64,000 nucleotides of DNA from an uncultured virus (IMG/VR IMGVR_UViG_3300024258_000017). Lineage: Duplodnaviria > Heunggongvirae > Uroviricota > Caudoviricetes. Position 1 is the first letter of the stretch, and each line of letters begins with the position of its first letter. Below the pieces are notes generated by a model, which made no database searches, was not told the DNA's origin, and saw only the letters and a program-made list of their open reading frames with translations. The translations under genes were made by a program, and so were the position numbers. This document shows positions 1-59,562 of this stretch, piece after piece. The stretch lies in IMG/VR virus record IMGVR_UViG_3300024258_000017, one strand, 5' to 3'.

Positions 1-131
1 GTTACAGGCAAGATCAGGATCACACCGCCACCGCCTGTTTTTTCGGTAGGCAATCAGGTAGTTCTCCGGCATTTGCCGAATTGTATCTGAATAAGGTGCA
101 TGAATCAATTTGGTTTTCATAATATACCCGT

Positions 132-287
132 TTAATACCCGAGCCAGTTCAGAACGTCTTGTCCTGTGTACTCGGTTTTATTACCTGTGTCATCAAAAAA
201 ATCTTTTGGATCAGACCCGTGCGCTTTGATTTCACGCTCTATTTCTGATCTTGTTGGTGTATATTCACATGCATCATCATAATCCAT
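132..287 (-). CDS. small hypothetical protein (51 aa, MDYDDACEY...VLNWLGY), not in ORF track
   Basis: Hand translation; GGAG upstream on the minus strand. Confidence 0.6.
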   Translation of the reverse strand: MDYDDACEYTPTRSEIEREIKAHGSDPKDFFDDTGNKTEYTGQDVLNWLGY

Positions 288-435
288 CAGCAATTAACTC
301 CAATCACCACAAAGGCAATAATCAGAACTAACATAAGGACGAATTTAACTAAATCCGGCGTTTTCCCCGTAGAAACTGGGAATTTTTTGGATTTCCGTTC
401 ATGTGTTATTTGATAAGAGTAAACAGAATAAAACA

Positions 436-819
436 TCATGACGCAACCGCCAGAGCCTTATTCCACTCGGAGGATTTCACGCTCCCCATCAGCCATGAAA
501 ATTTCCCATGTCTGTTTATGTGGATGTTTGCATAATTTGACCCGATTGTATTACTAATCAGGGTCTTTATGGCGATCCGTTCAAGTTGATTTTGTACCGC
601 ATTATTTAAATTAAAAACCTGTTTATACAGCTTTTTGACTTTCATAAGTTTTTTCGGTACGGCATCAGCAAAAACCACTTTGAAGTGGTAACTGTTGGCA
701 AAGTCCTTATTACTATTTTGGATTTTAGCGACCCAACCCCTACGGGTTTTTGATCTATCCACTATCAATAATGCCGGAATTTTACCGTTCAGATTTATTA
801 CGAATTCTTTCGAGTTCAT
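436..819 (-). CDS. hypothetical basic protein
   Basis: 127-aa ORF with GAGAGG RBS just upstream. Confidence 0.6.
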   Translation of the reverse strand: MNSKEFVINLNGKIPALLIVDRSKTRRGWVAKIQNSNKDFANSYHFKVVFADAVPKKLMKVKKLYKQVFNLNNAVQNQLERIAIKTLISNTIGSNYANIHINRHGKFSWLMGSVKSSEWNKALAVAS

Positions 820-907
820 AAATACCTCTCATTTTATTCGGAAAATTTCGTTCTGCCGTTCACTAATATTTAATTAATAAAAAAAATAAAAAAAAACGGC
901 TTTCATC

Positions 908-952
908 AAAAAAAGCCCGACTGAAATATCCTAAGATAAATCAATCGGGCTT
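908..952 (-). terminator. intrinsic terminator
   Basis: Minus strand AAGCCCGAUUGA...UCAGUCGGGCUUUUUUU: stem with one G-U pair, then U7. Confidence 0.75.
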
Positions 953-1562
953 AAAAGATGCCTTTGGTAATATCGGAAAGTTCAGGTTATTCACTGAATA
1001 TTTACAGGACTTTGTAAATACCGATAAAATCAATTTCCAAACCGACACCCCAACCATAATTCGTTCAACCGGACGGAGTTCACTGAATGTTCAGGAAATA
1101 AGTATTAGTTATTTATGTCTGAATTTTTCAGTTTACCGTTCAATGGTGAACAAAAAATTTGCTGTAATTAATCCAAATGGATTTATTTGGATGTCGATTT
1201 TAGAAAAAGCTACGATTAAAAAGACTTACCAGTTCTAATTAAACGGTTGTTTATGAATTACTTTCATTCCCATAAAACCCTATAGTTTTAAAACCGTTCA
1301 CAAGGTACTAACCCGAGGGACGTTCCACGCCGGATTTTTTAAGGAACAGTTCACCGTTATCAATTAAATGACTTTCAAAAAGAGGCGGAATTTCCTCAAG
1401 AAGTGTTCATTCAGATTTAGAAACAAACCTATCTGCACCATTGTTCTTAGACCTACGTGGCAAGTTTGGTTATTGCAGGTCAGTATCCTTTTTACTTGGG
1501 AAAATTCTAAAACCCGTTCATCTACTCTAATCAGGGAAAATCTTGAGGTGTCGTTCACAGCT
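908..1562 (-). ncRNA. putative large structured ncRNA or leader RNA (~650 nt), class unknown
   Basis: No convincing ORF; many nested inverted repeats (1543-1553/1043-1053, 1541-1548/1394-1401, 1505-1516/1412-1422, 1292-1298/1242-1248, 1083-1131, 971-976/1021-1026); G-U pairs favour the minus strand; ends in terminator. Confidence 0.55.
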
Positions 1563-2100
1563 TAGATTTTACTCCCAATATTGCGGAATAGATTACCCAA
1601 TATATACCCAATATCCTATATTACATTCACATGTATATTAGCATATCGCTATATAGATGGTTCTACATTTTTCTTACAATTATCCCGTGAAAATGATTAA
1701 TACGGAATTCATAAAGATAGGTATATATATAATAAATTATATATATACTATTCTCAATTATATAGGTTGAATTTTACCATAATTGATATTATTCAAAACT
1801 TAAAGATATATCAAATTTTAAACTTTCAAATTTTAATATTCAAAAAATGAATAAAAAAAAATGATCATTTAAAACTTAATTAATTTCAAGTCTCACTTAC
1901 ATTATATGGACAAACCGGCATTCTGTAACAAATTATTTTTATTTATTTGAAAATAGTCATAATTGATCAATTTTCCCTATATACCTATATATACAGTCAA
2001 TTTTTAGTGTTTTGATATTGTTTAGACTCTCAGAAAAGCTATATATTTCAGCACTCCGACAAGCGGAGATAAACAATAAACTAATAAAAGGAATAAAAAC

Positions 2101-3075
2101 ATGCATTTAAACGAAAATCAACTAAATCAAACTACCGGCATTAATTACAGTAGCGTAATAAATGATAGTGAATTCAAAGCGGGTAACCTCGGCAATTTGG
2201 ATAAATTAATTGAAGAAAATTCAAAATTGCCAAGTGTAAAAAGTACCGGCAAAAAAGTAAAAAAACATATTAAACTTAAATATGTAGAACCAGAATTAAA
2301 TGAACTCAAAAAAATATTTGATAATTTGGTAACTCCAAATAATGATATAAACATCATAAATAATGAACTTGGAACCAGAGTTTTAAATTCAGTTGGAAAT
2401 TCAAAAGGCAAAAAGAAAATAGTTGTAAACAACGGCGGTAAATTTCCATTGAAAAATAAATATACTGTGAACCCTGAATTAATCGAACTGGATAAACTTG
2501 AGACTCCAAACGTAATAAGAGAGATTGAAATATTAGAGGGCTTTTTTAAATGGTATATTTACAGATATAGAACCACTCATTATTTTCAAGACGATTTATT
2601 ACAAGATATGAAGTTATCTTATATCGAATCAAGAATGAAGGGCGAATGTATTAATTATTCAAAAGAGAAAGCCCTCTTTCAGAGTTTTGATATTTGGATG
2701 CAATACACAAATAAAAAATTCAGCCGTAAACGGGTAAACGGTAAACGTGAAAATAAATTACTTGAATATGATGTAAGAAATTTTGACACTGTTTACACTG
2801 GAACCCCTGAATTATTAGAATCAGCTATGAAATTAAACACAACTGAAACAAACGATTTTAACAGTGCTAAATTTTTGATCAATTTTTATAGATTAATCTT
2901 AAAAAGTTGTAAGGATACAATCGATAAAAAGATTATAAAACTATCGTTATCCGGCAATAGTCATTCCCAAATTGCGAACGAATTACAAATACATCGTCCA
3001 ACTGAGTCAAGACGCTTTAAGGCAATTTTAGAACGTTTCCACGAATTAAATAATATTAATCAGAAAGTGAATTAA
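2101..3075 (+). CDS. sigma70/ECF-like transcription factor with C-terminal HTH
   Basis: Region-2-like DDLLQD; region-4-like LSLSGNSHSQIANELQIHRPTESRR; AAGGA RBS. Confidence 0.55.
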   Translation: MHLNENQLNQTTGINYSSVINDSEFKAGNLGNLDKLIEENSKLPSVKSTGKKVKKHIKLKYVEPELNELKKIFDNLVTPNNDINIINNELGTRVLNSVGNSKGKKKIVVNNGGKFPLKNKYTVNPELIELDKLETPNVIREIEILEGFFKWYIYRYRTTHYFQDDLLQDMKLSYIESRMKGECINYSKEKALFQSFDIWMQYTNKKFSRKRVNGKRENKLLEYDVRNFDTVYTGTPELLESAMKLNTTETNDFNSAKFLINFYRLILKSCKDTIDKKIIKLSLSGNSHSQIANELQIHRPTESRRFKAILERFHELNNINQKVN

Positions 3076-3077
3076 TA

Positions 3078-3293
3078 ATGTATAGAACGAATAATACTCA
3101 TATTGTTTTTATTCCAGTAAAAATAATTAATTCACGGCGTATTTGTAAGGATATAGAAAACCAACTATTAAAAGATATTAAATCACAGTTGGACCCATTG
3201 AAGGGAATAATAATAATATCAATTAGTAAATTCGAAAATTTAACTACTGATATTAATGTATCTGATTATTATATGAGTTATATCTCTAAATAA
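3078..3293 (+). CDS. hypothetical protein
   Basis: Abuts upstream stop; followed by terminator. Confidence 0.45.
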   Translation: MYRTNNTHIVFIPVKIINSRRICKDIENQLLKDIKSQLDPLKGIIIISISKFENLTTDINVSDYYMSYISK

Positions 3294-3313
3294 TACTATA
3301 TAATCAGAAAGCT

Positions 3314-3343
3314 AAAAAGGGAGTTTAAACGCTCCCTTTTTTT
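3314..3343 (+). terminator. intrinsic terminator (possibly bidirectional)
   Basis: AAAAAGGGAGT-ttaaac-GCTCCCTTTTTTT. Confidence 0.85.
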
Positions 3344-4577
3344 ATACTCAAAATATATTATACATATAGAATAATTATATATAACTTTGTATCCATTCGA
3401 GCGGACATTTTACCGACGGTATTATCATTATTATCATTAATTCGATACAATACACTACATTGTAACTTCATAGCGTATTTGGTGCAATATTGGACGTAAT
3501 AAGCATAATTAAACATATTAGTACATATTAGAATAATACGGGGTGATATACGGGTGATATATCCCGCTCTCAGTAGGTTAAAAATTCCGGCGGGTTTTCT
3601 GGATGCATAGCAATTTATTAACGTCTCAAAGATTGAATTCTGATATAATTCTGCATACATCCAATCAATAAAACCCCAATAAGACACAGTAACAATCTTA
3701 TATCCTTTCCAGAGCGTAAACAGCTATTAAATAGAGTAAACAGTTTTAAATGATATTAAACACTTGTACCCCTCACATATTTTTTAAAATTTATTAATCA
3801 GAATTCACAATAATTTTAAATTCTCTCAATAACTCAAAATAATATTTAATATTAAAATATATTCAAACTATTCTATATACTTTCATAAAATTTTTAATCC
3901 GATTTAGTCCGCTCTGCATGTTCACGGGGTAAAATATCAGCAATTATTCAATATTAGATATATAGCTTTTTTTATATATTCGCATAATATCGTATTATCA
4001 GAATAATTATTTAAATGATTGAATATATTAGAATTAATTGCCGTTCAAGACGGGGTAAATTTCCAAAATCGAAAAATTCGTTCTCATTTACTTTAGGAGG
4101 AACTGCGGATTATAATAAAGTCTAAAATATTTAAGGGGGTTGAAACTTTTATAAAGTATTGTGCGTGGAAGATCATACAGGGGATAATTTGGTTAAGAAT
4201 GGATATTGCAGAATATAATTTGGTATTGGGTATAAATAAAAAATGTCTCCCGAGGGTTGTTGCGTATAAATGTAGATGTCGGAGGTGTGTCTTCGGGGGA
4301 TCGAGGATTTACCGCCCGAAAATTTGGTGCGTGGTGGGGGTGCTGGAATTGGGGTGGTTTTGAATCGGAGGTTTTGGTCCTCAAAAGGTCAGAAAAAAAA
4401 TCTCCTGTAAAAATATGGGTTTAGTAAATGTCGCCCACGGAAGAGTACCGCCGGGTTTGGTGCGTATTAATACCGGTGACTCTTATTTAAACGTGGTAAG
4501 GTATAGTAGGCTATGGTATTATATGTTAGGATAGGTAGGTTGAGCGTCGTAATATATAGCGTCGCACAGGAAACACT

Positions 4578-4787
4578 ATGAATAAAAAACAATATTATAC
4601 GCTCACTGATGTCGCCCTTAATCTGGGTGTACACAACAATACCGCCAGAAAACTTATTACCTCGGGTGAAATTAAATCCTACAAAATTGCGGGTAGATAC
4701 AGGATCGATGCAAAAGACCTCGCCGAATACCTGAAGAACTGCAGAGTTGAAAAATCTACCGTGCTTGGTGTGGAGGTGCCGGAATGA
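4578..4787 (+). CDS. excisionase-family HTH DNA-binding protein
   Basis: YYTLTDVALNLGVHNNTARKLITSGEIKSYKIAGRYRI (HTH_17 pattern). Confidence 0.85.
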   Translation: MNKKQYYTLTDVALNLGVHNNTARKLITSGEIKSYKIAGRYRIDAKDLAEYLKNCRVEKSTVLGVEVPE

Positions 4788-4953
4788 TTAAACTCAGATT
4801 AATGGCTGGTAAATATTATAATCCAAGCGAGGATGATCTTTTATTAACACCCGCCATTGTGTATGCCACGGCAAAATATAACGACAGGGACGCAAAGGCA
4901 ATAGGAATTACGTGGATTCATTGGACCTTTGGGATAGCTTGGATTAGAGGTAA

Positions 4954-5295
4954 ATGATGGAACATGGATACAAAGGACTCACCGAAGATGGTCGATGGGC
5001 GTATGGTGGTTTAGTCGATGGTATTTATATTGTCAGTGGATTAACCGATTTAGGTAATTATTATATGTGTTGCCCAGATCAAGTCCGCCCAGAAACGGTT
5101 GGGAGATGGACAGGTCACAAGGATTGGTACATAGGTGATTATCTTGGTGTAGTTGGTGGATCGAAAAGGAAGTATGAAATTGTATGGGATCAAGAGCGTT
5201 TTTCTATTATGGCAAAGTGCCTCACTTATAATTCTGTGAACAATATTAGAAACACAAAGAATTTAGAAAGGATTGGTAACAAGTGGGAGAAGTAA
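4954..5295 (+). CDS. YopX-family phage protein
   Basis: W-x-YGGL, VRPETVGRWTG, C-terminal ERIGNKWE. Confidence 0.75.
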   Translation: MMEHGYKGLTEDGRWAYGGLVDGIYIVSGLTDLGNYYMCCPDQVRPETVGRWTGHKDWYIGDYLGVVGGSKRKYEIVWDQERFSIMAKCLTYNSVNNIRNTKNLERIGNKWEK

Positions 5296-10495: not shown

Positions 10496-10831
10496 ATGGA
10501 AATTGAAAGAATGAACAAAGGGGAGTGGGGTAAAATCCGTGCTTTCTTTGACTTAAAAACTGAAGAGGGCTTTATACTCAAGGGTTTCAAGCTGATAAAT
10601 GGTAGTAACGGTCTATTCGTAGGGTTTCCCAGCCAGAAAGGACAGGATGATCAATATTATGACACCATCTGGGCGGACAAAGAACTGAAAGAGATTGTTA
10701 ATCAGGTTGCACTCAAATATTATGGTGTGGATGTTAATCAGCAGAGTGGTGGTTATGAAAATAATTCACCGCCCGTAAACGATGCTCCGCCAGTAGATGA
10801 TACTCAATTCGATGACGATATACCGTTTTAA
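10496..10831 (+). CDS. spoVG: SpoVG-family nucleic-acid-binding protein with SSB-like acidic tail
   Basis: KIRAFFD...IKGFKLI.G.NGLFVGFPS.K...YYD pattern; ends DDDIPF. Confidence 0.85.
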   Translation: MEIERMNKGEWGKIRAFFDLKTEEGFILKGFKLINGSNGLFVGFPSQKGQDDQYYDTIWADKELKEIVNQVALKYYGVDVNQQSGGYENNSPPVNDAPPVDDTQFDDDIPF

Positions 10832-15156: not shown

Positions 15157-15354
15157 ATGGCAGAGACTAATAACGACAGGTTACTTACCGTGTCTCAGGT
15201 TGCTGAGAAACTAAATATGTCCAAGGCAACTGTTTACTCCAAAACAAAAATGGGGGAAATCCCTTCGGTGAAGTTTGGTGAGACGATAAGGGTAAAAGAA
15301 TCAGATTTAGAAAATTATATCGATTCAAATATTCATAAACCTAAAGAGGGCTAA
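15157..15354 (+). CDS. excisionase-family HTH DNA-binding protein
   Basis: LLTVSQVAEKLNMSKATVY...GEIPSVKFGETIRV. Confidence 0.85.
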   Translation: MAETNNDRLLTVSQVAEKLNMSKATVYSKTKMGEIPSVKFGETIRVKESDLENYIDSNIHKPKEG

Positions 15355-15701: not shown

Positions 15702-16705
15702 CCCCCTCAGTGTTAGCAGACATACTCCATAAAATCGCTGGTGACAGCCACAATAAGGTGATGAAGCCTTTTAGCCCGAAACCATCTAATTCTGGTCCGG
15801 GTCGGTGTGTCAGGCAAATGGTTTTTCACTCAATGGGTATAGAGCCAGATTCTTTCTTTCCAGATAGATTGTGGATGATTATGGATGATGGCAATTATCA
15901 CGAAGGATATACTGCAGGATGGATAGAAGAGTCTGGGTACCGATTAAAGGACGTACAAAAGAAGTTAAAACTCGGGTTTCCATTTAACAATGGGTATATT
16001 GATGGAATAGTTGTAGATATAATGGATATTGAAACAACTTACGACCATAAGGACAAAGGTACTCACATGGTTGACAAGTTTTATTCTGGGTCTGATTTGC
16101 CACTGGATGACTTTACTCAGCTTGCTATTTATAGTAGGCATTTACAAATAAATGATATGGTGAACTCAGATCAATGTTTGCTGTTAATTAGAAACAGGGA
16201 TACCGCACAATATATTGAATATTTTTGCAGGTATTTAGTGGATGAAGATTGCATGGTTATTGTCAGCCTAACCCACTCTAACGGAGATTTTAAGGAACTT
16301 GATATTCCCCTAAAAAATATTTATGCAAACGCTATAGAAAAATTTAATTTTGTGAAGGAAATGAGTGAAAAAAAGAAACTTCCTCACAGACAATATTATA
16401 AAGACTCTTGGCGCTGTAATTATTGTGATTGGAAAATAAGATGTTGGGAGGGCTATGACGACGAAAAACCGGAAAGGGCTATTACAGACCTTCCAGAAGA
16501 ATTCGAGGAAACGATTGATAAGTATATTAAGTGGGATAGAATTAAAGCAATTGGGTCGAAGTCTTTTGATGACATTAAAAATTATATGAGGGCAAGAAAT
16601 ATACTACATGCAAGGATGGGGAATATACTCATTAAGAGAAAAATATCTACGTCGGTCGCAGGAAAGAAAACTGAAAAATATTCACATGAGGTAATTGATG
16701 TTTAA
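15689..16705 (+). CDS. Cas4-like PD-(D/E)XK exonuclease with Fe-S cysteines
   Basis: CVRQ, GYIDG, QLAIY, CNYCDWKIRC; start may be GTG 15710. Confidence 0.8.
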   Translation: MYPRSPSVLADILHKIAGDSHNKVMKPFSPKPSNSGPGRCVRQMVFHSMGIEPDSFFPDRLWMIMDDGNYHEGYTAGWIEESGYRLKDVQKKLKLGFPFNNGYIDGIVVDIMDIETTYDHKDKGTHMVDKFYSGSDLPLDDFTQLAIYSRHLQINDMVNSDQCLLLIRNRDTAQYIEYFCRYLVDEDCMVIVSLTHSNGDFKELDIPLKNIYANAIEKFNFVKEMSEKKKLPHRQYYKDSWRCNYCDWKIRCWEGYDDEKPERAITDLPEEFEETIDKYIKWDRIKAIGSKSFDDIKNYMRARNILHARMGNILIKRKISTSVAGKKTEKYSHEVIDV

Positions 16706-17867
16706 TGGCGGTTTCAAACCAACAACAACTGTTAAGGGTCTTGATAAATCTACTGGCAGATTCCCAAGGCTTGGGAAAATAAAACTTGGAATAAAAGCTA
16801 AAACTAAAAAGGGCAAAGAATATCCAAAAGAGGTCAATTACTTTGTATGCCCAGATAATGTTATTCAGGTGATAGGAGAGGATGAACCAAAAGAATTAGA
16901 TATTATGGTGCCATCTGATGATCTATCAAAAATACTACCAGTTGCATATAAAATGTATGGTTCTGGATACGGAGTGAAATGTATTGGTGATGGGGAAACA
17001 GGTGTAGAAAAAACTGATGGTGGTTTTGATCAGACCCGTGCTTGTACCTGTGAAAATTACGAACAGGGGAAATGTAAGTTGGTGGCACATTTCTTATTTC
17101 TAATTCCAAAGGTTTCCCTCGGTGGTGTTTTCCAAATTGACACCTCTTCTATAAATAGTATTATAGATATACGGTCTGGTCTTGAATTCACGGCAGAAAT
17201 GGTTGAAAAAATTACCGGTAAAAAAAGATTCAGCATGATTCCTTTGAAGTTAGTAAGAAACCCCAAAGAAACCCATGGATCAGGTATGCCGGAAATGCAT
17301 TATACTATGTCTGTACAACCAGCATTCGACCTAACGCAACTTGCGGGTTTTTTGGGTTCGCCTGTGAACATGTTGGGCATAGAAATGCCCACCCCTCAAC
17401 TTATACCTGAGAACACTGTGTCATATAGCGACATGGAAGACGACAAGAACGATGATGAGAGCGTGGTGAAAAAGGAAGATATAATTGATGCGGAGCCAGT
17501 GGAAGATCAAAAGACGGTTGAAAATAAAAATAATTCTGGATTAAACCAAAAACACATTAAATATAAACCAGAATATATAAAAGCATTCCTTGATCAAGAC
17601 TTGGGAATGCTGAGAAAAAAGGAACCAAAGAGGCTAAAGGATTATTTTAAAAACGGCATTAAAATATTAGACAGAACCCAGATTGTTAATTTTCAAAAGG
17701 CGGTTGAAAATCAGTTTCCTGATGGGTTTGATAATGTTACAGATGAACAGTTAAGTATAATCGGTGTAGCGAATGTGTTTAATTTTTGCGTGATATTGAA
17801 AACCTTTTTAAAGACTCAAGAGGAATTGGTGCAAGAAGATCAGGATGGGGCAACGGGGGAAAAATGA
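16695..17867 (+). CDS. phage recombination protein (Gp3-like / recombination-directionality-factor-like family)
   Basis: PRLGKIKLG...YPKEVNYF, C.GDG, GVFQIDTSSINS. Confidence 0.65.
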   Translation: MMFNGGFKPTTTVKGLDKSTGRFPRLGKIKLGIKAKTKKGKEYPKEVNYFVCPDNVIQVIGEDEPKELDIMVPSDDLSKILPVAYKMYGSGYGVKCIGDGETGVEKTDGGFDQTRACTCENYEQGKCKLVAHFLFLIPKVSLGGVFQIDTSSINSIIDIRSGLEFTAEMVEKITGKKRFSMIPLKLVRNPKETHGSGMPEMHYTMSVQPAFDLTQLAGFLGSPVNMLGIEMPTPQLIPENTVSYSDMEDDKNDDESVVKKEDIIDAEPVEDQKTVENKNNSGLNQKHIKYKPEYIKAFLDQDLGMLRKKEPKRLKDYFKNGIKILDRTQIVNFQKAVENQFPDGFDNVTDEQLSIIGVANVFNFCVILKTFLKTQEELVQEDQDGATGEK

Positions 17868-20822: not shown

Positions 20823-21179
20823 ATGCCTTGGAAGTTTTATTGTTTACCAAGACAGACTTTAAAGTTGAACATGAGGATAAACAAAATGTTAATGAAAACC
20901 ATATCAGAATTAAGAAATAAATTCAATGCAGAAAACTTCCACATGGCTAATACTGTACACATAAGCCAAAACGAGTTGGATTCACAAATTATTACTATGA
21001 ACAAACAAGCATTGATGAAAAGACTAAAAGAACTTACCAGTAATCCGAATGCCCACTTACTGCCATCTCTGAAAAACCCAGTGACCATCAAATTTGGTGA
21101 CATTGTATTTGATCTTAAAGTGGTTGAAAGAAAATTAGGAGAGATATTTGTTTCACGGGAAACAGTAGCGCCATGCTGA
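20823..21179 (+). CDS. hypothetical protein
   Basis: ORF in operon; true start probably downstream. Confidence 0.55.
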   Translation: MPWKFYCLPRQTLKLNMRINKMLMKTISELRNKFNAENFHMANTVHISQNELDSQIITMNKQALMKRLKELTSNPNAHLLPSLKNPVTIKFGDIVFDLKVVERKLGEIFVSRETVAPC

Positions 21180-21607
21180 TAAAACACTATAATCATCTCG
21201 ACCCTCAAATTGGTAAAATAGTAGCATTCTTTGAATTAGAAGTGGTGGAAGGAATCACTATTCAGGGAATGAAACTGATAGATGGTACAAACGGATTATT
21301 TATTGCTCCGCCAGCCCAAAAGGGCAAAGGTGATAAATATAATGATATTATTGTCCTGAGTAAATCAATGAGGCAAAGGATTCACCAGATGATCATGCCT
21401 GATTATAATCTTAAAGAGTTTGGTGTAGAAAAAGAAGAAATTGAATCAGTAAATAAAAAAACTGTTGTTGAGGCGGATGCCGATGACAATAAAGAATTAT
21501 TTCCAGAAGACGATACGGACGATTATGTAATAATAAAACCACCTATTGAGAAACCCTACGACCCTAAAAACGATGGAGAAGAGTATGACGACGACCTCCC
21601 CTTCTAA
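21173..21607 (+). CDS. spoVG: second SpoVG-family protein with acidic tail
   Basis: VAFFEL...IQGMKLIDGTNGLFIAPP...YND; ends DDDLPF. Confidence 0.75.
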   Translation: MLIKHYNHLDPQIGKIVAFFELEVVEGITIQGMKLIDGTNGLFIAPPAQKGKGDKYNDIIVLSKSMRQRIHQMIMPDYNLKEFGVEKEEIESVNKKTVVEADADDNKELFPEDDTDDYVIIKPPIEKPYDPKNDGEEYDDDLPF

Positions 21608-51300: not shown

Positions 51301-53525
51301 CAATATATAAATATGGTGGGAACAGCTATGTTGGAACTGATCTTCCTGTCATCATTGAAAGTAACAGGATATATAACGCCGATAGAGCAGATCATATTTC
51401 TAAAAATACTCTCTTGGCATACCGTCAACCAATTATTAATCCGAGTTTTGAGGTGTTCGGTGATCCGAGGGCAGAGCCATTTGACCCTGTGACATTTAAA
51501 GATAATAAATATAACATCTCTCAGGCAGTGTGGTTAAAAGCTATTACCGAGTCGTTCACCAAGCAAAGAACATACATGACGACAATATCAACAGTTCTTT
51601 CTAAACCACCGGTGGCATCTTTCCAAGAAAAGCGTGAACCGGATTTGAATCTATTTAATAATGAACCAATAATAAATATTCAAGTCAAGTCTCAAGGTGG
51701 CAGGATTTGTGGTGGAGATGCTACTGTATCAACGAATGAAATAACCATAACAACCGATCCAGTGTGGGAAGATGATGTCTGGAATGGGTATAAGTTCTAT
51801 GATAATGACGGGGTAGAATTTGATATAGATGATACGGTTGGAAGCACAAAGAAATTAACCCTCTCTGGCGGACCAAGTGATGATGGGACCGGAGCCGTTG
51901 CCGGTGATTGGGCTGTATCATTTAATCCTCTCGATACGAATGCTTTGGGTGCGCCGTTAGAAATACATTTTGATCAAGTTGTTAATGGCAGGATTCAAAT
52001 ATACATATTAGATTCAACTAATCAAGCAATAGCCTTGGTCAACTCTGATAATGTCGGTGTAATTCATGAGTGGGGTCTTGGTAAAGTGTTTTATTGGAGT
52101 GGTGCAATTGATTATAATAGTCGCCCCGGGAAAACAGGCTATTATATAAATGAATTAACAACCATCTTCGAAGCCCCTGTAAAAATAATGATTGCCTTCC
52201 ATCCATCAAATGTTGACAATGATATTGTCTCAATAGATACAAATAATAGTGGTGATATTACTGTTAATGGAACAGTCTCTTTACAATCAACCTTGGGACC
52301 GGTTCAAATTTATCCAGTCACAGATGAAGACCCCCCACATATTAAAATAGATATTGAAGGTAATACAGATTATCAAATAGTAGAGCAAGGGACCATTGAT
52401 ACTATCGTTGCCTATACTGATGCGACCGGATTATTGAGAATCACTGTTAATGGGTTTACGTTTTCCGATGATGATTATAACGGATATCTTATTGGAATCT
52501 CAAGGATAGATGTAGATGAATTCTCTGGGATAGGAGAGCAGAAGCACTCACAAATATGGAGAATAGATGACACTATTGGTCCCGATATTATATTATGTTA
52601 TCCAGTTGGAGCAGGGGCAACTAATCGTCTCAACCCCCATGTAGATTCCTACATAGAAATTATAGGCGACGGTGGAGCGCACCCCAATAATGGAGTGTAT
52701 GAAAATACTATATATCCTCATTTTAAATCATCGGATAATCAGTTCCGTGGATTAAGATTAAAATTCAGTATCGAGAATTTATATGCCTCTCCACCCGCTA
52801 TTTACCATGATGATATAGTGGTGGGTGGGGCGCAACTAAGGGAAGCCAATTGTCTGTTTGGTAAAACTGGGTCTGATACAATATATTCTATCTTGGCAAA
52901 AACTGGCAATTATTTTAGAATGAGAGATGTAGTCAACAACAATGATGTGTTCATTCAATCCAACCCAAAGAAAGGTATCTTTCAAATGGGGTTCTCTGAT
53001 TTAATGGATACTTCTCTATTGCCTAATAGCATAACGAGGACGAGGGAGTATTTAATAAAGGCAAATTTAAAAGTATATAAGGTTTCTAAATATACTCATT
53101 ACTCTACAATCTCAGCACAGTTAGACGTTTATGCTTTCAATGAAAACTTTATCGACACCCAAGGGTTTGTCATGTTAGACGATTTCGAATTCTTCTTTAA
53201 GCCGGAGAACTACATATTTGGAGATGAAAGTACGCCCGGCGGTCCACAGCGTTTAGTCAATAATGAAGATACAGGATGGCTCTTCGTGTTCGAGTTCTTC
53301 TTTATTGATAGGCTTGGTAGGCTGTCAAGGAATACATATAACGGACCAACTGATCCCAATGAAGAAGAGGAACAGCATGGGTTCTACTATATAGTTGGAT
53401 GGCAACCAGAGATCGGTTCTCACAGAATTGCACACCATAAAGAATTAGGTCTTTCTGAACAATTCTTTGGTGATCTAAGGATGGCAAATATGTATCCGCA
53501 TTTTGGGTATTGGACTAACCTGTAA
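48396..53525 (+). CDS. large tail-tip/hub protein with PA14 and carbohydrate-binding-like domains
   Basis: PA14-like FDWGIGGSP..YAVRWYGKF..SGVYKFY..LTAGNWYDIQIEFWQ; NYLSNPEF CBM-like start; RNIVTVVG. Confidence 0.75.
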   Translation: MQSVPTALETLITAERQQPVFKVSIYDTPKTVPSKGFNVAFYTLESNDDMIAGDWFTTPASPLLLSYPSASADLSNVIEPASAMTFDWGIGGSPAPLTKSDLYAVRWYGKFFARYSGVYKFYLDCSPHSRIRIKFDGSYLTLKDSSGTTVSTWVDTASTVDTKKELVADTSSLTAGNWYDIQIEFWQPRKRVFENIPTYMCVKYKEPDATTSYDEIGNEDGDYSTGDSRENVVTDYQSDHLIKKVLSAGVVNIANSFLSPTVLTNVLNASGKKEIDQASEYRIDVPLPFATELSADVSIGASTIAVETIESLENIRVGKIGSDTFTFTGVSGSTLTGVSGVGSNHDEGDVVYFYPASEYPFDKNDNTFGDIKPFQLCVLEIGFKSFPDASPADTSYYTKRITGFISRNPSIKRSSNETILTIYITDFRSLLIRKFNENYPNYASYSSAGYYTGEILNEPNGISRPQAYDYWRLSDAVRDIMMKANIDPILFYRKKRHNRTGGANYLTDFGEYLIWSDIQLDGQNQYGSPTATDSVSPDEKYRWFFGYGEILLDSLSKLAKNFSYHLSFDGEGSPIFKPISLPTVDYSISNSEVGDNYLSNPEFTTNINGYFYTPLTMERVDSSSDPGSASPGSDSWCGKFSYSGDQAILRAQFLNFQTPEVPQQFTFSFYVPTGSPDMEVGLVHAPSGTYYPWIAQSGDLTVKDAWETVVIVFTMHIEDIFNFFVGQGIGTSALFYIDKLEHIETTGLVFSVAGGATQTDGTNLLSYRGAYTSLVKNAGTATILLASVEFIDFIILFNALTGATGTTEIKIEYNDSGWLPVTDIVWNGVALNDVSGVFDLSLDSSDYPSNWYYYQGLSPASGYNPAIIYLSSLFAYNTYDIRITVTGGAFEFGAILLFRESINKAVLEFNTNDQVSKIQSMVHEIEDTRNIVTVVGAEQGKVANQDSQVLNPNNPVYIHVYSKSIDVDSIYKYGGNSYVGTDLPVIIESNRIYNADRADHISKNTLLAYRQPIINPSFEVFGDPRAEPFDPVTFKDNKYNISQAVWLKAITESFTKQRTYMTTISTVLSKPPVASFQEKREPDLNLFNNEPIINIQVKSQGGRICGGDATVSTNEITITTDPVWEDDVWNGYKFYDNDGVEFDIDDTVGSTKKLTLSGGPSDDGTGAVAGDWAVSFNPLDTNALGAPLEIHFDQVVNGRIQIYILDSTNQAIALVNSDNVGVIHEWGLGKVFYWSGAIDYNSRPGKTGYYINELTTIFEAPVKIMIAFHPSNVDNDIVSIDTNNSGDITVNGTVSLQSTLGPVQIYPVTDEDPPHIKIDIEGNTDYQIVEQGTIDTIVAYTDATGLLRITVNGFTFSDDDYNGYLIGISRIDVDEFSGIGEQKHSQIWRIDDTIGPDIILCYPVGAGATNRLNPHVDSYIEIIGDGGAHPNNGVYENTIYPHFKSSDNQFRGLRLKFSIENLYASPPAIYHDDIVVGGAQLREANCLFGKTGSDTIYSILAKTGNYFRMRDVVNNNDVFIQSNPKKGIFQMGFSDLMDTSLLPNSITRTREYLIKANLKVYKVSKYTHYSTISAQLDVYAFNENFIDTQGFVMLDDFEFFFKPENYIFGDESTPGGPQRLVNNEDTGWLFVFEFFFIDRLGRLSRNTYNGPTDPNEEEEQHGFYYIVGWQPEIGSHRIAHHKELGLSEQFFGDLRMANMYPHFGYWTNL

Positions 53526-55363
53526 TGAAAAATGCATTACAAAATATAGATGCTCATATAAAAAGACGGCTTCGTCCTCCCAGACAATTAAATATTGCTA
53601 ATGATCACTCACACCCATTAATAATTCAAACACCTCAAAGTTTTAATCAGCCAGACTTGGCTATACAGTTTTCATCTATATATTTTTCAAGTCAAAGGAC
53701 TACCGTTGACTATGAAACTTCTGCGACAATTAATGCCAACGGAAATGTTTTAACATATAGTCACGAGGAAACTTCGAGGGCGGGTGATTATAATTTTGTT
53801 ACAGATCGATGGGAAGATGATGCCTCTCCTGCATGGACAATAGATGAATGGAAAGATCATTGGCTTTTAGCCAGTGGGAATTATTATAAGATCACGAGCA
53901 ACACTGCAGATGCCGTATATATAACAGTTGAGGGCAATGTTCCCCCAGAAAAAGGTAGTATAACCATTGTTCCGTTCAAGACCAATGAGTTCAAGGGAGC
54001 CTATCTACAGCCAGATACTTCAAAATCGCAACACAGGTTCACTATATTATCTAATACAGATACTACAATTACTATAAAAAAAGAGACAGTTCATAGTGCT
54101 GGTTCTGTTACAACTGGTGATGCGGGAGCGCCCTATGATACATTTAAAGACTCCTTCTTTGTATTGCCAGCCGGAGATGATGATTTTTTAATTGATTATT
54201 ATGTTGCGTTCACGTCTGGGGCGAATTCAGGCACCGCTAAAAAAATAACGGACTTTTCAGCTACGACGGGAACATTCGTAGTAGATGCTTTCGCCGGTGT
54301 AATTGCCATAAATGACAAGTATCAAATTGAATATGATATGAGATGGGTGTCTGCCGGTTCAACCTTTGTGATCGAAGGTTTCTATGTCCCGACTGAAGCT
54401 GATTTTGTGGGGGGGGCTGTTGTTTCTGAGGGAGAAGTCCACAGGAAAACAGTGCAGTTTGATCAGTGGGAGATAATAGATAATAATCTTGGTGATTATA
54501 TAAATGCTATTTATTCAGTCGAGGTGATGTCTGTAAAAAGTGGAGAGATATCTATACCGGTCCACTCTAAGAACAGTATTAAGATAAAGATAACTGAGGT
54601 TGATCTATCAAGCCCTGTTGTATTAGCTGATTCAGGGTTCAGACCGAACTTTAATTCATCGATTAGAGTTAATTATAAACAGAATGTCTGGTACAGGATA
54701 GATATCTATGTATATGCAGAGGACGGGAAGACGGGATTCAAATTAGGGGAAGAATTTAGACAGGCTTTTGATTATTTCAGACTACCTTCGCCGGGTGTTC
54801 CGGCTTCTCTCACAACAACCCCCGGCAAGAATCAAATGTTATTGACGTGGGAGCAGGATGAATCATATAAGACTGAGGTTTATTCCAGTACGGATGGAGT
54901 AAATTATACTTGGCTTGCAACTGTTGGGCGGGGAGAAAGCAGGTATGTTCATACTGGGTTAGTAACTTACGGAAAGTATTACTACAAACTGAAACACATG
55001 AATGATACTGGGGCTGTATCAGCCTTGACCTCTCAGGCAACGGGAACTGTGCTTCAACAAATAATACCACGGACTGTAACAGTCGATACAAAGATTACAT
55101 TGACAGATGAAGGTACAAGGATATTTGTTAATAGTGGTGTCGCAGAAACAATAACTATGCCAGAAAATACTACTGAAAATCTCCCAGTAGGATTTAGTTG
55201 TGAAGTTGTAATGATGGGGGCGGGTGACGTTGACTTTGCAGTAGAGGGTTCTGATAATTTAAATTCAGTTGGTGGCTTTACGACGATCAATGCTCAGTAT
55301 CAGATGGTTGAGGTATATAAACAGGCATCAGGTGAATGGTGGTTGTTCGGAGATTTAAAATAA
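53525..55363 (+). CDS. tail fibre/spike-associated protein with fibronectin type III domain
   Basis: PGVPASLTTTPG..MLLTW...YVHTGL....YYYKL. Confidence 0.7.
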   Translation: MKNALQNIDAHIKRRLRPPRQLNIANDHSHPLIIQTPQSFNQPDLAIQFSSIYFSSQRTTVDYETSATINANGNVLTYSHEETSRAGDYNFVTDRWEDDASPAWTIDEWKDHWLLASGNYYKITSNTADAVYITVEGNVPPEKGSITIVPFKTNEFKGAYLQPDTSKSQHRFTILSNTDTTITIKKETVHSAGSVTTGDAGAPYDTFKDSFFVLPAGDDDFLIDYYVAFTSGANSGTAKKITDFSATTGTFVVDAFAGVIAINDKYQIEYDMRWVSAGSTFVIEGFYVPTEADFVGGAVVSEGEVHRKTVQFDQWEIIDNNLGDYINAIYSVEVMSVKSGEISIPVHSKNSIKIKITEVDLSSPVVLADSGFRPNFNSSIRVNYKQNVWYRIDIYVYAEDGKTGFKLGEEFRQAFDYFRLPSPGVPASLTTTPGKNQMLLTWEQDESYKTEVYSSTDGVNYTWLATVGRGESRYVHTGLVTYGKYYYKLKHMNDTGAVSALTSQATGTVLQQIIPRTVTVDTKITLTDEGTRIFVNSGVAETITMPENTTENLPVGFSCEVVMMGAGDVDFAVEGSDNLNSVGGFTTINAQYQMVEVYKQASGEWWLFGDLK

Positions 55364-59075: not shown

Positions 59076-59562
59076 CTTGTTTCTTTTCCTTATATATATT
59101 TTTAAAATTAATGTCTAATAAATTTGGTTCCCATACTACGGGTAGTTTTGATTCCTGTTTTACAAAGCGCACGTTCTTTGCACCTTTCGGCAGAAACAAT
59201 GGTCGCATCAGAAAGTAACTATCGTTTAAAGTAATTTCATCCTTTTTTACTCGGATGATATTGCACCCTTCCAATGTCCTGACTGCATCATGCCACTGCC
59301 ATTCACGACCGCCTATGTCCCTACACATCTGTTCACGATGATAGTTTATCACTGAGAATCTTCTTTTCTCAGAAGCCAACTTTGGGATGTAATTCAATGC
59401 CTTGGCAGATAACTCACCTACTTTAATCAGTAACCTCAGATCAAACTTATCCATTGATAATAAATGAACGGCGACATCTTCATGCAGGAATATAGGGAAC
59501 TGAGAATAGTGTTCCCTCCTATTCTTGTACCCTAATTCAAGCGCCCTGTCTTTTTTGCTCAT
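59050..59562 (-). CDS. hypothetical (possible wHTH) protein
   Basis: Overlaps the recombinase stop. Confidence 0.55.
   Translation of the reverse strand: MSKKDRALELGYKNRREHYSQFPIFLHEDVAVHLLSMDKFDLRLLIKVGELSAKALNYIPKLASEKRRFSVINYHREQMCRDIGGREWQWHDAVRTLEGCNIIRVKKDEITLNDSYFLMRPLFLPKGAKNVRFVKQESKLPVVWEPNLLDINFKNIYKEKKQDDKREIDF

What the first reader, a model, noticed from the sequence alone, without database searches (positions are those of the whole stretch)
908..1562. ~650-nt highly structured non-coding RNA heading the leftward operon
Seen: the region has no credible ORF but many nested helices. An 11-bp long-range helix closes ~510 nt (minus strand CGACACCUCAA at 1553-1543 with UUGGGGUGUCG at 1053-1043). 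Other stems are 1505-1516/1412-1422, 1292-1298/1242-1248, 1171-1192, 1083-1131 and 971-1026 (enclosing 999-1020). An intrinsic terminator follows at 952-908. The non-Watson-Crick positions in several stems become G-U pairs on the minus strand. Inference: this is a large phage ncRNA, or a leader controlling read-through into the gene at 819-436. Large structured phage RNAs are established (GOLLD, ROOL, HK022 put), but I cannot assign this one to a class.
Basis: partly seen in the sequence, partly recalled or inferred. Interest (0 to 1): 0.8.

Follow-up and report, generated by a model that had tools for sequence, protein, structure and literature searches.

The report
Abundant structured phage noncoding RNA
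A marine phage makes a folded RNA of about 1,000 bases that codes for no protein, turns up in seawater RNA samples, and matches no known RNA family.

Summary
The finding is real but needs redrawing. Contigs from 3 metatranscriptome runs (2 studies) cover 960/962/965 to 1861/1861/1880. With a sigma-70-like promoter (1929-1901) and two intrinsic terminators (952-888), that suggests a minus-strand RNA of about 990 nt (about 1894 to 906), not 650 nt.

The whole RNA folds far better than shuffles on the minus strand (z -8.5; plus strand -4.5; three coding controls +0.5 to -2.7). The excess sits in a 5' AU-rich domain (z -5.4) and a 3' domain (z -4.6).

One natural variant contig (965-1185) has 14 substitutions. 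Six form 3 compensated pairs in two hairpins (P about 2.5e-5), and one gives G-U on the minus strand only.

A motif is new here: TGAAC occurs 15 times on the RNA-sense strand between 1557 and 401 (1.3 expected), often as TGAACGG-N9-AAATTTTCC.

There is no Rfam hit, no credible ORF and no homologue in any collection searched. Best reading: a discrete new phage lncRNA, probably a multivalent binding platform that also limits entry into the leftward operon. Its function is inferred.

The parts
1901..1929 (-). Sigma-70-like promoter (GTTACA, 17 nt, TATAAT; 10 of 12 matches). It predicts a start near 1894.
   Evidence: RNA-library contigs end at 1861, 1861 and 1880, just inside this predicted start. 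The start site itself is inferred.
906..1894 (-). Proposed noncoding RNA, about 989 nt.
   Evidence: RNA-run contigs cover 962-1861, 960-1880, and 965-1185 plus 1156-1861. MFE -258.2 against shuffles -203.4 +/- 6.45, z -8.5; plus strand z -4.48. No Rfam hit. No credible ORF.
1541..1894 (-). 5' AU-rich domain. It has a 95-nt terminal hairpin (1892-1797), a (UA)n hairpin (1747-1722) and a hairpin at 1708-1682.
   Evidence: z -5.39, 0 of 100 shuffles as good. Helix probabilities 0.96-0.99. No TGAAC on this strand here.
1208..1540 (-). Central part without folding excess. It carries TGAAC sites at 1520, 1409, 1353 and 1300; the site at 1557 lies just upstream.
   Evidence: z -0.67, 26 of 100 shuffles as good. 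Motif listing.
960..1207 (-). 3' structured domain. It contains the closing helix 1197-1189/1050-1042, hairpin 1183-1170, hairpin A (1132-1082) and hairpin B (1020-999).
   Evidence: z -4.59, 0 of 200 shuffles as good. Helix probabilities 0.96-1.0. Compensated changes in the variant at 1131/1083, 1019/1000 and 1017/1002.
888..952 (-). Two overlapping intrinsic terminators. The first is stem 952-941/924-913 plus a U-run to 906. The second is hairpin 917-898 plus U9.
   Evidence: P 0.97. The first stem has a U-G pair on the minus strand, which would be a C-A mismatch on the plus strand.
379..1557 (-). Array of 15 same-strand TGAAC cores (T at 1557, 1520, 1409, 1353, 1300, 1142, 1093, 1082, 1067, 984, 862, 818, 791, 583, 401). 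Six match the strict two-part pattern modelled on TGAACGG-N9-AAATTTTCC (1557, 1520, 1409, 1142, 862, 401).
   Evidence: 15 observed against 1.27 expected, Poisson p 8e-12; it is the most enriched of all 1,024 5-mers, and its complement GTTCA occurs once. All 6 strict pattern hits in the 64-kb window, both strands, lie here; about 1 is expected (the pattern was defined after seeing the sites).
436..819 (-). First gene of the leftward operon, 127 aa, of no known family. TGAAC sites at 862 and 791 flank its ribosome-binding site and start codon.
   Evidence: 4 distant relatives. Model pLDDT 73.5 with only weak Rossmann-like fold matches.
2101..3075 (+). Divergently transcribed 324-aa gene. It is a lead for an ECF-type sigma-70 family factor.
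   Evidence: Atlas feature score 0.97; all 10 of the ten best hits that carry a family share one family or clan. No Pfam or PDB sequence hit passes threshold. The structure model is poor (pLDDT 35.8).

Best explanation
This is a discrete noncoding RNA gene of a marine tailed phage. Host RNA polymerase starts at a sigma-70-type promoter (1929-1901), transcribes leftward from about 1894, and mostly stops at two intrinsic terminators (952-888). The product is an RNA of about 990 nt.

The RNA has three parts:
- a 5' AU-rich domain that begins with a long terminal hairpin;
- a central stretch of about 330 nt with no folding excess, which displays copies of TGAACGG-N9-AAATTTTCC;
- a compact 3' domain whose hairpins are kept by compensatory change.

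I propose that the RNA works as a multivalent binding platform (a sponge or scaffold) for a sequence-specific factor. The same factor would also meet the motif copies that flank the start of the first leftward genes. The terminators would hold down transcription into that operon.

Shown: the region is present at depth in RNA libraries; the folding excess is strand-biased; two hairpins covary; the motif array exists; no ORF or known family is found.

Inferred: the exact ends, the strand (indirect evidence only), that the motif is read as RNA, the binding factor, and the sponge mechanism. I put the identity (a real, discrete, structured ncRNA) at about 0.8 and the mechanism at about 0.3.
For: Expression:
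- In 3 of 3 RNA runs laid (2 studies), contigs cover 962-1861 (depth 43.1), 960-1880 (30.2), and 965-1185 (22.2) plus 1156-1861 (10.2).
- The downstream gene contigs have depths 14, 4.4 and 3.2.
- Positions 2421-3080 have zero depth in all 3 RNA runs, while the DNA run covers 30 of 30 bins. This argues against DNA carry-over.
- No loose ends are listed at 960-965 or 1861-1880.

Folding:
- Full length on the minus strand, z -8.5; plus strand -4.48.
- Three coding windows of the same length give +0.54, -2.69 and -0.28.
- A second ORF-free stretch, 4090-4578, gives -0.46.

Covariation: the structure was predicted from the reference alone. The variant's 14 substitutions then give 3 compensated doubles (A-U to U-A, U-A to G-C, C-G to U-A), 1 wobble-compatible change, 4 unpaired and 3 disruptive. 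P(>=3 compensated) is 2.5e-5 in 200,000 random placements. An A-to-G change plus an inserted C adds a G-C pair to hairpin A.

Strand:
- The change at 1099 gives U-G on the minus strand and a C-A mismatch on the plus strand.
- The variant's fold energy goes from -50.1 to -51.3 on the minus strand, but from -52.5 to -47.3 on the plus strand.
- The U-run terminators and the 10/12 promoter are both on the minus strand.

Motif.

No family: Rfam at gathering threshold over the whole window gives 0 hits. At E<=10 over 1-5200 there are 5 hits, all far below threshold.
Against: - Contigs cannot show strand, ends or level. The runs were chosen because they hold this stretch, so their depths are a poor measure.
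- Covariation rests on one variant contig covering 221 nt. The other ~770 nt have no comparative support.
- Three variant changes break predicted pairs (1013, 1052, 1053).
- The central third folds no better than chance.
- No homologue was found anywhere, so there is no evidence of a family.
- No binding factor is identified.
- The motif has no consistent structural context (core pairing probability 0.28-0.94). It could equally be read on DNA.
- The RNA contigs stop at 960-965, about 55 nt short of the predicted 3' end.
Confidence: 0.45

Rival explanations
1. It is a cis-acting leader. The ~1-kb RNA is the 5' leader of the leftward operon. Its job is to decide, by antitermination or attenuation at the 952-888 terminators, how much transcription enters gene 819-436 and beyond. 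The motif copies would load an elongation or antitermination factor onto the transcribing complex.
For: - It has the same orientation as the operon and sits directly upstream of it, with two terminators between them.
- The motif continues into the first genes, at 862, 791, 583 and 401.
- In all 3 RNA runs the downstream gene is present at a lower depth than the RNA.
Against: - No RNA contig bridges 864-959 in 3 of 3 runs. This is weak evidence, because the stretch is partly low-complexity.
- I found no convincing alternative pairing for the terminator's 5' arm by eye. The best candidate is 7 bp, 360 nt away; this was not computed.
- A leader of about 1 kb with a covarying 3' domain is far larger than known leaders of this type (size of known leaders is recalled).
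- No match to any Rfam leader or antitermination model.
Confidence: 0.2
2. The array acts at the DNA level. The TGAAC...CC elements would be DNA sites, for example ECF-type -35/-10-like boxes for the sigma-like protein encoded next door. They could act as a tandem promoter array or as a decoy, or they could be iterons of a replication origin at the point where the gene-strand switch and the GC-skew switch coincide. The transcript would then be secondary.
For: - The neighbouring 324-aa gene looks like an ECF sigma factor (Atlas score 0.97).
- ECF promoters have AAC at -35 and CGT at -10 (PMC8103513, passages read).
- 8 of 15 sites have CC[C/G] starting 15-16 nt after TGAAC (read).
- Cumulative GC skew turns at 2-4 kb.
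- In X20 the 3' contig is deeper (22.2) than the upstream one (10.2), as nested internal starts would give.
Against: - 0 of 15 sites has CGT at the -10 place; they read CGA, CGC, CGG or CCN.
- No two-part pattern hit lies on the plus strand, where the rightward genes that run through to the tail genes lie.
- There is none upstream of the sigma-like gene itself.
- Spacings (37, 111, 56, 53, 158 ...) are not in helical phase.
- DNA sites do not explain the compensated stem changes, the 3-nt loop insertion or the strand-specific G-U.
- Sigma membership is not confirmed by Pfam.
Confidence: 0.15
3. The RNA is made from the plus strand, running about 960 to 1880. It would be, for example, a long upstream leader or antisense partner on the side of the sigma-like gene.
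For: Contigs carry no strand information. The plus strand also folds better than shuffles (z -4.48).
Against: - No plus-strand promoter-like site lies just upstream of 960, and there is no U-run terminator near 1880.
- The variant weakens the plus-strand fold by 5.2 kcal/mol but not the minus-strand fold.
- The full-length minus-strand MFE is 48.6 kcal/mol lower, and its z-score is nearly twice as large.
Confidence: 0.07
4. It has no function of its own. It would be run-off transcription of a spacer whose hairpins are terminators and promoter-region palindromes.
For: The central third shows no folding excess. No homologues were found.
Against: - Three compensated pairs in internal hairpins.
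- A strongly strand-specific motif array.
- Contig depth above its neighbours in 3 of 3 RNA runs.
Confidence: 0.03

Closest known systems
GOLLD and ROOL large ornate RNAs of phages and prophages
   Same: They are large (over 600 nt), structured and phage-borne, code for no protein, and have no known function. GOLLD accumulates during lytic growth (PMC7567579, passage read, citing Harris & Breaker 2018).
   Different: No covariance-model match. There is no tRNA in the window, whereas those RNAs often sit near tRNAs (same passage). This RNA has an unstructured centre with a repeated two-part motif. It lies in the divergent control region and ends in intrinsic terminators.
The ~800-nt ncRNA of Vibrio phage ICP1 (most abundant ICP1 transcript, in a ~1-kb ORF-less gap)
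   Same: [quoted passage not shown]
   Different: It sits beside the lysis cluster, not at a divergent early region. No record of the phage collection matched 850-2100 by blastn. No motif array or covariation is described in the passages I read.
Antisense immunity RNAs made from operon leaders (P4 CI, P1/P7 c4, N15; PLE IIR transcript)
   Same: They are noncoding RNAs made at the head of an operon in the control region of a temperate element. Repeated short sequences occur in the leader and the downstream mRNA.
   Different: Those RNAs are about 70-80 nt (recalled) and act by complementarity to leader sequences (PMC7567579 passage). Here the repeats are all in the same sense, and the complement GTTCA occurs once. 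BLAST of 900-1900 against the whole window found no complementarity beyond chance (best non-self E 0.08).
Protein-sponge RNAs (CsrB/RsmZ, CrcZ)
   Same: They carry many copies of one short motif on one RNA, and copies also lie near the ribosome-binding sites of target genes. This is the closest 'works like' model.
   Different: The motif is different. There is no known cognate protein. This RNA is 2-3 times longer. The only CrcZ model hit is 13.1 bits against a threshold of 95, at 877-923 on the other strand. Properties of these sponge RNAs are recalled, not read here.
HK022 put / lambda nut antitermination sites
   Same: They sit at the head of an early leftward operon, upstream of terminators.
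   Different: Those are short elements (recalled). No Rfam match. Nothing here shows terminator read-through.
Type III toxin-antitoxin (ToxI repeats, terminator, toxN)
   Same: The order is the same: promoter, repeat-bearing RNA, intrinsic terminator, small protein gene.
   Different: There is no tandem array of near-identical repeats. TRF finds only 5 short AT-rich arrays. The 127-aa protein has no Pfam, PHROG or convincing fold match to an endoribonuclease.

Membership tests
Any Rfam 15 family (includes GOLLD, ROOL, put, 6S, CsrB/Rsm, CrcZ, riboswitches, introns) | Covariance-model score at or above the family's gathering threshold | tested here: not met
   0 matches in the 64-kb window at gathering threshold. 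At E<=10 in 1-5200 there are 5 matches, the best being 29.5 bits against a threshold of 56, outside the RNA. Inside the region the only hit is CrcZ, 13.1 against 95.
Intrinsic (Rho-independent) terminator | A GC-rich hairpin directly followed by a U-run on the transcribed strand | tested here: met
   A 12-bp stem, 952-941/924-913, followed by a U-run (P 0.97). A second site lies at 917-898, followed by U9.
Structured ncRNA (general) | Folding energy beyond dinucleotide shuffles, and more so than local controls | tested here: met
   z -8.5 against controls at +0.54, -2.69, -0.28 and -0.46. This holds only for the 5' and 3' domains.
Structured ncRNA (general) | Compensatory base-pair changes among natural sequences | tested here: met
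   3 compensated pairs and 1 wobble-compatible change among 14 substitutions in one variant; P 2.5e-5. There is only one variant and it covers only 965-1185.
Structured ncRNA (general) | Transcription on the proposed strand with defined ends | tested here: inconclusive
   RNA-library contigs cover 960-1880 in 3 runs. Contigs give neither strand nor ends.
P4 CI / P1 c4-type antisense immunity RNA | A segment complementary to repeated sequences in the leader or mRNA of the controlled operon | tested here: not met
   No complementarity beyond chance within the window. The repeats are same-sense: TGAAC 15 times, GTTCA once.
Type III TA antitoxin RNA (ToxI-like) | A tandem array of near-identical ~36-nt repeats followed by a ToxN-family toxin gene | tested here: not met
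   TRF finds no such array. The 127-aa protein has no family hit.
Protein-sponge RNA (Csr/Rsm/Crc type) | Multiple copies of the binding motif on one RNA | tested here: met
   10 TGAAC cores lie inside 1894-906, and 4 of them fit the strict two-part pattern.
Protein-sponge RNA (Csr/Rsm/Crc type) | A cognate RNA-binding protein that is titrated | not testable with these tools
   No candidate was identified. The two SpoVG-like genes and the 127-aa protein are only guesses.
ECF sigma-dependent promoter | [quoted passage not shown] | tested here: not met
   AAC is present in 15 of 15 sites. CGT at the -10 place is present in 0 of 15; the sites read CGA, CGC, CGG or CCN.
Sigma-70 family, ECF group (for the neighbouring 324-aa protein) | Sigma70_r2 and Sigma70_r4 domains detectable by profile | tested here: inconclusive
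   No Pfam hit passes threshold; the best is an HTH at E 0.03-0.08. No PDB sequence hit. Atlas feature score 0.97 to sigma clusters; structural TM scores 0.22-0.31.

The most novel reading that the evidence does not exclude
The RNA and its motif array form the phage's lysis-lysogeny control device, standing in for a protein repressor. In this reading, an abundant ~1-kb RNA is made in the silent state, and its ~10 copies of an ECF -35-like box (with 5 more copies in the adjacent mRNA/DNA) capture or misdirect the phage's own ECF-like sigma factor, which is encoded divergently next door. The two hairpins that differ between strains, with structure preserved, would act as strain-specific specificity modules. 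That would be an RNA (or RNA plus DNA) decoy for a sigma factor, a mechanism without precedent outside 6S RNA.
Probability: 0.1. Interest if true: 0.9.

Novelty: new variant of a known kind. Interest (0 to 1): 0.7.

Why it matters
Large structured RNAs of phages are few, and none has a known function. This one comes from a phage found in at least 20 seawater sequencing runs, in DNA and RNA runs dated 2016, 2018 and 2025. In the RNA libraries laid, its contigs are deeper than those of its neighbouring genes.

It also has an anatomy that can be tested directly:
- a promoter and terminators that bound it;
- an unstructured centre that displays a repeated 23-nt two-part motif;
- a 3' domain that keeps its helices while its sequence diverges by 10.6% over 132 nt, next to 706 identical bases.

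That gives clear handles for experiments: motif mutants, pull-downs and hairpin swaps. The aim would be to learn what a phage lncRNA does and how a phage with no recognisable repressor sets its early gene expression.

Tried and rejected
Homologue searches (all empty or at chance level):
- blastn of 850-2100 against 50,697 phage records: no match.
- tblastn of two structural proteins against the same records: no match.
- Protein-anchored locus searches in viral contigs with the 324-aa, 127-aa and DUF5131 proteins and with alignment A2: 0 confirmed.
- Alignment A1 in metagenome contigs and in genome contigs: 0 confirmed.
- DNA patterns: the motif-pair pattern gave 0 hits in viral contigs. A single-motif pattern gave 12 single hits with no array and no similarity. 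Two exact probes of 20-21 nt gave 0 hits in viral contigs, and one of them gave 0 in metagenome contigs. The motif-pair pattern in genome contigs gave 47 single hits across unrelated taxa, roughly what I estimated for chance (about 29, own estimate, not computed), with no arrays and no BLAST similarity.
- The one closer relative of the 324-aa protein (P0002, 61% identity, on a 3.4-kb contig) could not be fetched.

Other checks:
- Earlier findings of this scan: nothing on this genome or sequence.
- Own genome: none is held.
- No tRNA or tmRNA.
- Antisense targets in the window: none beyond chance.
- Alternative genetic codes open no long ORF.
- Fold of the 127-aa protein: only generic Rossmann-like matches, TM <= 0.47. 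Atlas gave no usable feature hit.
- The model of the 324-aa protein was too poor to search (pLDDT 35.8).
- No HTH_3-type repressor among the 84 ORFs scanned. This does not prove there is none.
- RNA runs show no cover over 864-959, 1881-2074 and 2421-3080. Apart from using 2421-3080 as the silent-stretch control for DNA carry-over, I treat these gaps as hints at most, not as evidence of transcript ends.
- I considered and dropped these readings of the motif: T-loop or tRNA-like modules on the plus strand, Chi-like sites, integrase arm sites, ColE1-type primer RNA, and CRISPR-like or anti-CRISPR repeat mimics. None has a feature I could test and meet here.
Full report
CONTEXT

The window is a tailed phage from seawater with GC of about 37%. 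It has a tape-measure protein, a capsid-like protein, a tyrosine integrase, methyltransferases and two SpoVG-like genes. Genes from 2101 to about 55.3 kb lie on the plus strand. Genes at 1-819 and at 55.3-64 kb lie on the minus strand.

The finding sits in a 1.28-kb ORF-free gap (820-2100). On one side is the first leftward gene (819-436, 127 aa, no family). On the other is the first rightward gene (2101-3075, 324 aa). The phage has no relative in the phage record collection.

CHECK OF THE OBSERVATION

The region has no credible ORF. The longest frames in 908-1562 are 64 aa (minus strand, GTG start) and 65 aa (plus strand). Reading TGA as Trp or TAG as Gln opens nothing convincing. None of 8 small ORFs in 941-2106 matches PHROGs or Pfam at E<=0.1. 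A natural variant destroys the ATG of the 38-aa frame 1057-941.

They fare very differently in the thermodynamic ensemble of the full RNA:
- Terminator: P 0.97.
- Hairpins 1183-1170, 1132-1082 and 1020-999: P 0.96-0.97.
- Helix 1298-1292/1242-1248: P 0.72.
- Outer helix 1026-1022/971-975: P 0.16.
- Helix 1516-1505/1412-1422: P 0.000.
- The 11-bp long-range helix 1553-1543/1053-1043: P 0.000.

The 3' arm of the long-range helix pairs instead with a second copy of CGACA(U/C)CC at 1197-1189 (P 0.998).

The stretch 908-1562 does beat shuffles (z -5.04 minus, -4.43 plus), but the excess is unevenly placed. For 1207-960, z is -4.59 (0 of 200 shuffles as good). For 1540-1208, z is -0.67 (26 of 100). 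Sliding 200-nt windows agree: z -3.7 to -4.0 on the minus strand across 801-1200, and about 0 across 1201-1600.

EXTENT AND EXPRESSION

One search for sequencing runs found 20 runs that hold the stretch 400-2200, and 6 of them are RNA libraries. I laid three RNA runs from two studies and one DNA run on 1-3300.

| Run | Contig over the region (depth) | Downstream gene contig (depth) |
|---|---|---|
| X15 (RNA) | 962-1861 (43.1) | 510-863 (14) |
| X16 (RNA) | 960-1880 (30.2) | 505-858 (4.4) |
| X20 (RNA) | 965-1185 (22.2) and 1156-1861 (10.2) | 577-828 (3.2) |

- The rightward gene appears only in X15 (2075-2400, depth 5.3).
- Positions 2421-3080 have zero depth in all three RNA runs, whereas the DNA run X14 covers 30 of 30 bins. 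That internal silent stretch argues against DNA carry-over.
- No loose ends are listed at 960-965 or at 1861-1880. DNA contigs run on across both places (442-1260 and 1644-1922).

Contig depths are poor measures, the runs were chosen for holding this stretch, and contigs show neither strand nor true ends.

A sigma-70-like promoter lies on the minus strand at 1929-1901 (GTTACA, 17 nt, TATAAT; 10 of 12 matches). It predicts a start near 1894, which is 14-33 nt beyond the contig ends. On the same strand the RNA ends in the hairpin 952-913 plus a U-run, overlapped by a second hairpin 917-898 plus U9.

I therefore redraw the element as a minus-strand RNA of about 989 nt, from about 1894 to about 906. 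That is some 330 nt longer at its 5' end than the finding.

STRUCTURE OF THE REDRAWN RNA

| Sequence folded | z-score |
|---|---|
| 1894-906, minus strand (MFE -258.2; shuffles -203.4 +/- 6.45) | -8.5 |
| 1894-906, plus strand (MFE -209.6) | -4.48 |
| Coding window, same length | +0.54 |
| Coding window, same length | -2.69 |
| Coding window, same length | -0.28 |
| Second ORF-free stretch, 4090-4578 | -0.46 |

By domain on the minus strand:
- 5' AU-rich part, 1894-1541: z -5.39. It starts with a 95-nt hairpin at the predicted 5' end.
- Centre, 1540-1208: z -0.67.
- 3' domain, 1207-960: z -4.59.

COMPARATIVE EVIDENCE

No homologue could be fetched (see the searches listed under tried and rejected). 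However, one RNA-run contig (X20, 965-1185) is a natural variant, with 14 substitutions and two insertions, all within 1000-1131.

The adjoining X20 contig, 1156-1861, is identical to the window over 706 nt. If both contigs come from one strain, divergence is 10.6% over 132 nt next to 0% over 706 nt, a mosaic pattern.

I took the structure predicted from the reference alone and scored the variant's changes against it:
- Six substitutions form three compensated pairs: 1019/1000 A-U to U-A, 1017/1002 U-A to G-C, and 1131/1083 C-G to U-A.
- One substitution (1099) turns U-A into U-G.
- Four fall in unpaired positions.
- Three break pairs. One is 1013, a loop-closing pair beside a 3-nt loop insertion. 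The other two are 1052 and 1053, in a 4-bp helix.

In 200,000 random placements of 14 substitutions, three or more compensated pairs arose at a frequency of 2.5e-5. An A-to-G change at 1118 together with an inserted C adds a G-C pair to hairpin A.

STRAND

All the evidence is indirect, but it agrees:
- The 1099 change is a wobble on the minus strand and a C-A mismatch on the plus strand.
- The variant's fold energy is kept on the minus strand (-50.1 to -51.3) and lost on the plus strand (-52.5 to -47.3).
- The terminator stem has a U-G pair that exists only on the minus strand.
- The promoter and the U-runs are on the minus strand.
- The minus-strand fold is 48.6 kcal/mol better, and its z-score is nearly twice as large.

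TGAAC occurs 15 times on the minus strand between 1557 and 401, against 1.27 expected from local composition (Poisson p 8e-12). It is the most enriched of all 1,024 5-mers there, and its complement GTTCA occurs once. Elsewhere in the window TGAAC runs at about 1 per kb per strand. The next densest 1.2-kb stretch has 8.

Of the 15 exact TGAACGG matches in the window, 7 lie here; 5.3 are expected for the whole window.

Many copies extend to a fixed two-part form, TGAACGG-N9-AAATTTTCC. A strict pattern finds 6 hits in the 64-kb window on both strands, and a loose one finds 5. All of them lie here, against about 1 expected. The pattern was written after I had seen the sites, so that figure is inflated.

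Distribution of the cores:
- Ten lie in the RNA body, none of them in the 5' domain.
- Five lie downstream. The sites at 862 and 791 flank the ribosome-binding site and start of the 127-aa gene. The site at 818 overlaps the ATG. The sites at 583 and 401 lie in coding sequence.

The cores have no common structural context (pairing probability 0.28-0.94), and their spacings are not in helical phase.

WHAT IT IS

It matches none of the 4,227 Rfam models. It holds no tRNA. It has no tandem repeats of the ToxI kind. It has no complementarity to other parts of the phage beyond chance.

The most economical reading is a discrete, terminator-bounded, structured noncoding RNA gene of a new family.

For mechanism I commit to a multivalent binding platform. 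The architecture is folded ends around an unstructured centre that displays repeated same-sense motifs, with further copies around the translation start of the next genes. That is what protein-sponge RNAs look like (recalled, not read here). The tandem terminators must also limit entry into the leftward operon. The binding factor is unknown, and this step is inference.

RIVALS

- A pure cis-acting leader is possible but unsupported. No bridging RNA contig was seen and no anti-terminator pairing was found.
- A DNA-level reading deserves attention. The divergent 324-aa gene looks like an ECF-type sigma factor by language-model features (score 0.97; all 10 of the ten best hits that carry a family share one family or clan). 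No profile or structure test confirms this. ECF promoters carry AAC at -35 and CGT at -10 (PMC8103513, passages read). All 15 sites have AAC, and 8 have CC[C/G] 15-16 nt downstream, but none has CGT. No copy lies on the plus strand where the rightward genes that run through to the tail genes lie, and none lies upstream of the sigma-like gene. DNA sites also fail to explain the compensated stems and the loop insertion.

WHAT IS IN PRINT

Three full-text searches and two papers read in passages gave one close analogue. In Vibrio phage ICP1 the most abundant transcript is an ncRNA of about 800 nt from a ~1-kb ORF-less gap. The authors compare its size to GOLLD and ROOL, and its function is unknown. 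The PLE satellite's most abundant transcript is an ncRNA with antisense homology to gene leaders, like the RNAs of P1, P7, N15 and P4 (PMC7567579). I saw nothing in those listings or passages that describes this RNA or its motif. That is not proof that it is unpublished.

VERDICT

This is a real, expressed RNA of about 1 kb, partly well structured, from a cosmopolitan marine phage. It has no known family and carries a striking strand-specific motif array.

Its boundaries, its strand and above all its function remain to be shown. The comparative support rests on a single variant covering a quarter of the RNA.

Noticed in passing
window 2101-3075 (+): The first rightward gene (324 aa) looks like a phage ECF-type sigma-70 family factor with a long N-terminal extension (Atlas feature score 0.97 to sigma clusters, several of them viral). 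No Pfam or PDB profile confirms it, and its only relative is one 61%-identical protein.
   Followed up: partly
window 1000-1131 against 1156-1861: In run X20, all 14 substitutions and 2 insertions of the variant contig fall within 132 nt, while the overlapping next contig is identical to the window over 706 nt. This may be a sharp mosaic boundary inside the RNA's 3' domain (a recombined or fast-evolving module). It could also reflect two strains.
   Followed up: partly
window 3294-4577: A second ORF-free gap of about 1.28 kb follows a two-way terminator-like hairpin at about 3312-3345. It is very AT-rich up to about 4100 and G-rich on the plus strand at 4140-4560. It shows no folding excess at 4090-4578 (z -0.46), so it is probably not a structured RNA.
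   Followed up: partly
window 785-793 (-), codons 9-11 of gene 819-436: The TGAACGG copy inside the 127-aa gene encodes Leu-Asn-Gly at a place where the three distant relatives have a 2-3-residue gap in alignment A2. This hints that the motif was fitted into the protein. At about 30% identity the gap placement is uncertain.
   Followed up: no
window 53978-55178 (-): This is the second densest cluster of minus-strand TGAAC (8 in 1.2 kb). It lies antisense to the last rightward gene (53525-55363). It may simply reflect a repeated Gly-Ser-type codon pattern.
   Followed up: no
window 10496-10831 and 21173-21607 (+): There are two SpoVG-like genes in one phage (Pfam E 2e-10 and 6e-10). SpoVG proteins bind nucleic acids (recalled), so they are candidate readers of the motif. 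This was not tested.
   Followed up: no
whole window: No HTH_3/CI-Cro-type repressor was found among the 84 ORFs scanned with Pfam. Only two HTH_17 excisionase-type proteins were found (4578-4787 and 15157-15354), although the phage has an integrase (59559-60653) and a Gp3-like recombination directionality factor (16695-17867).
   Followed up: partly
window 1721-1748: A 28-nt near-perfect (TA)n palindrome lies inside the RNA's 5' domain, with related TATATA-rich copies at 1978-1993 and 3950-3979.
   Followed up: no
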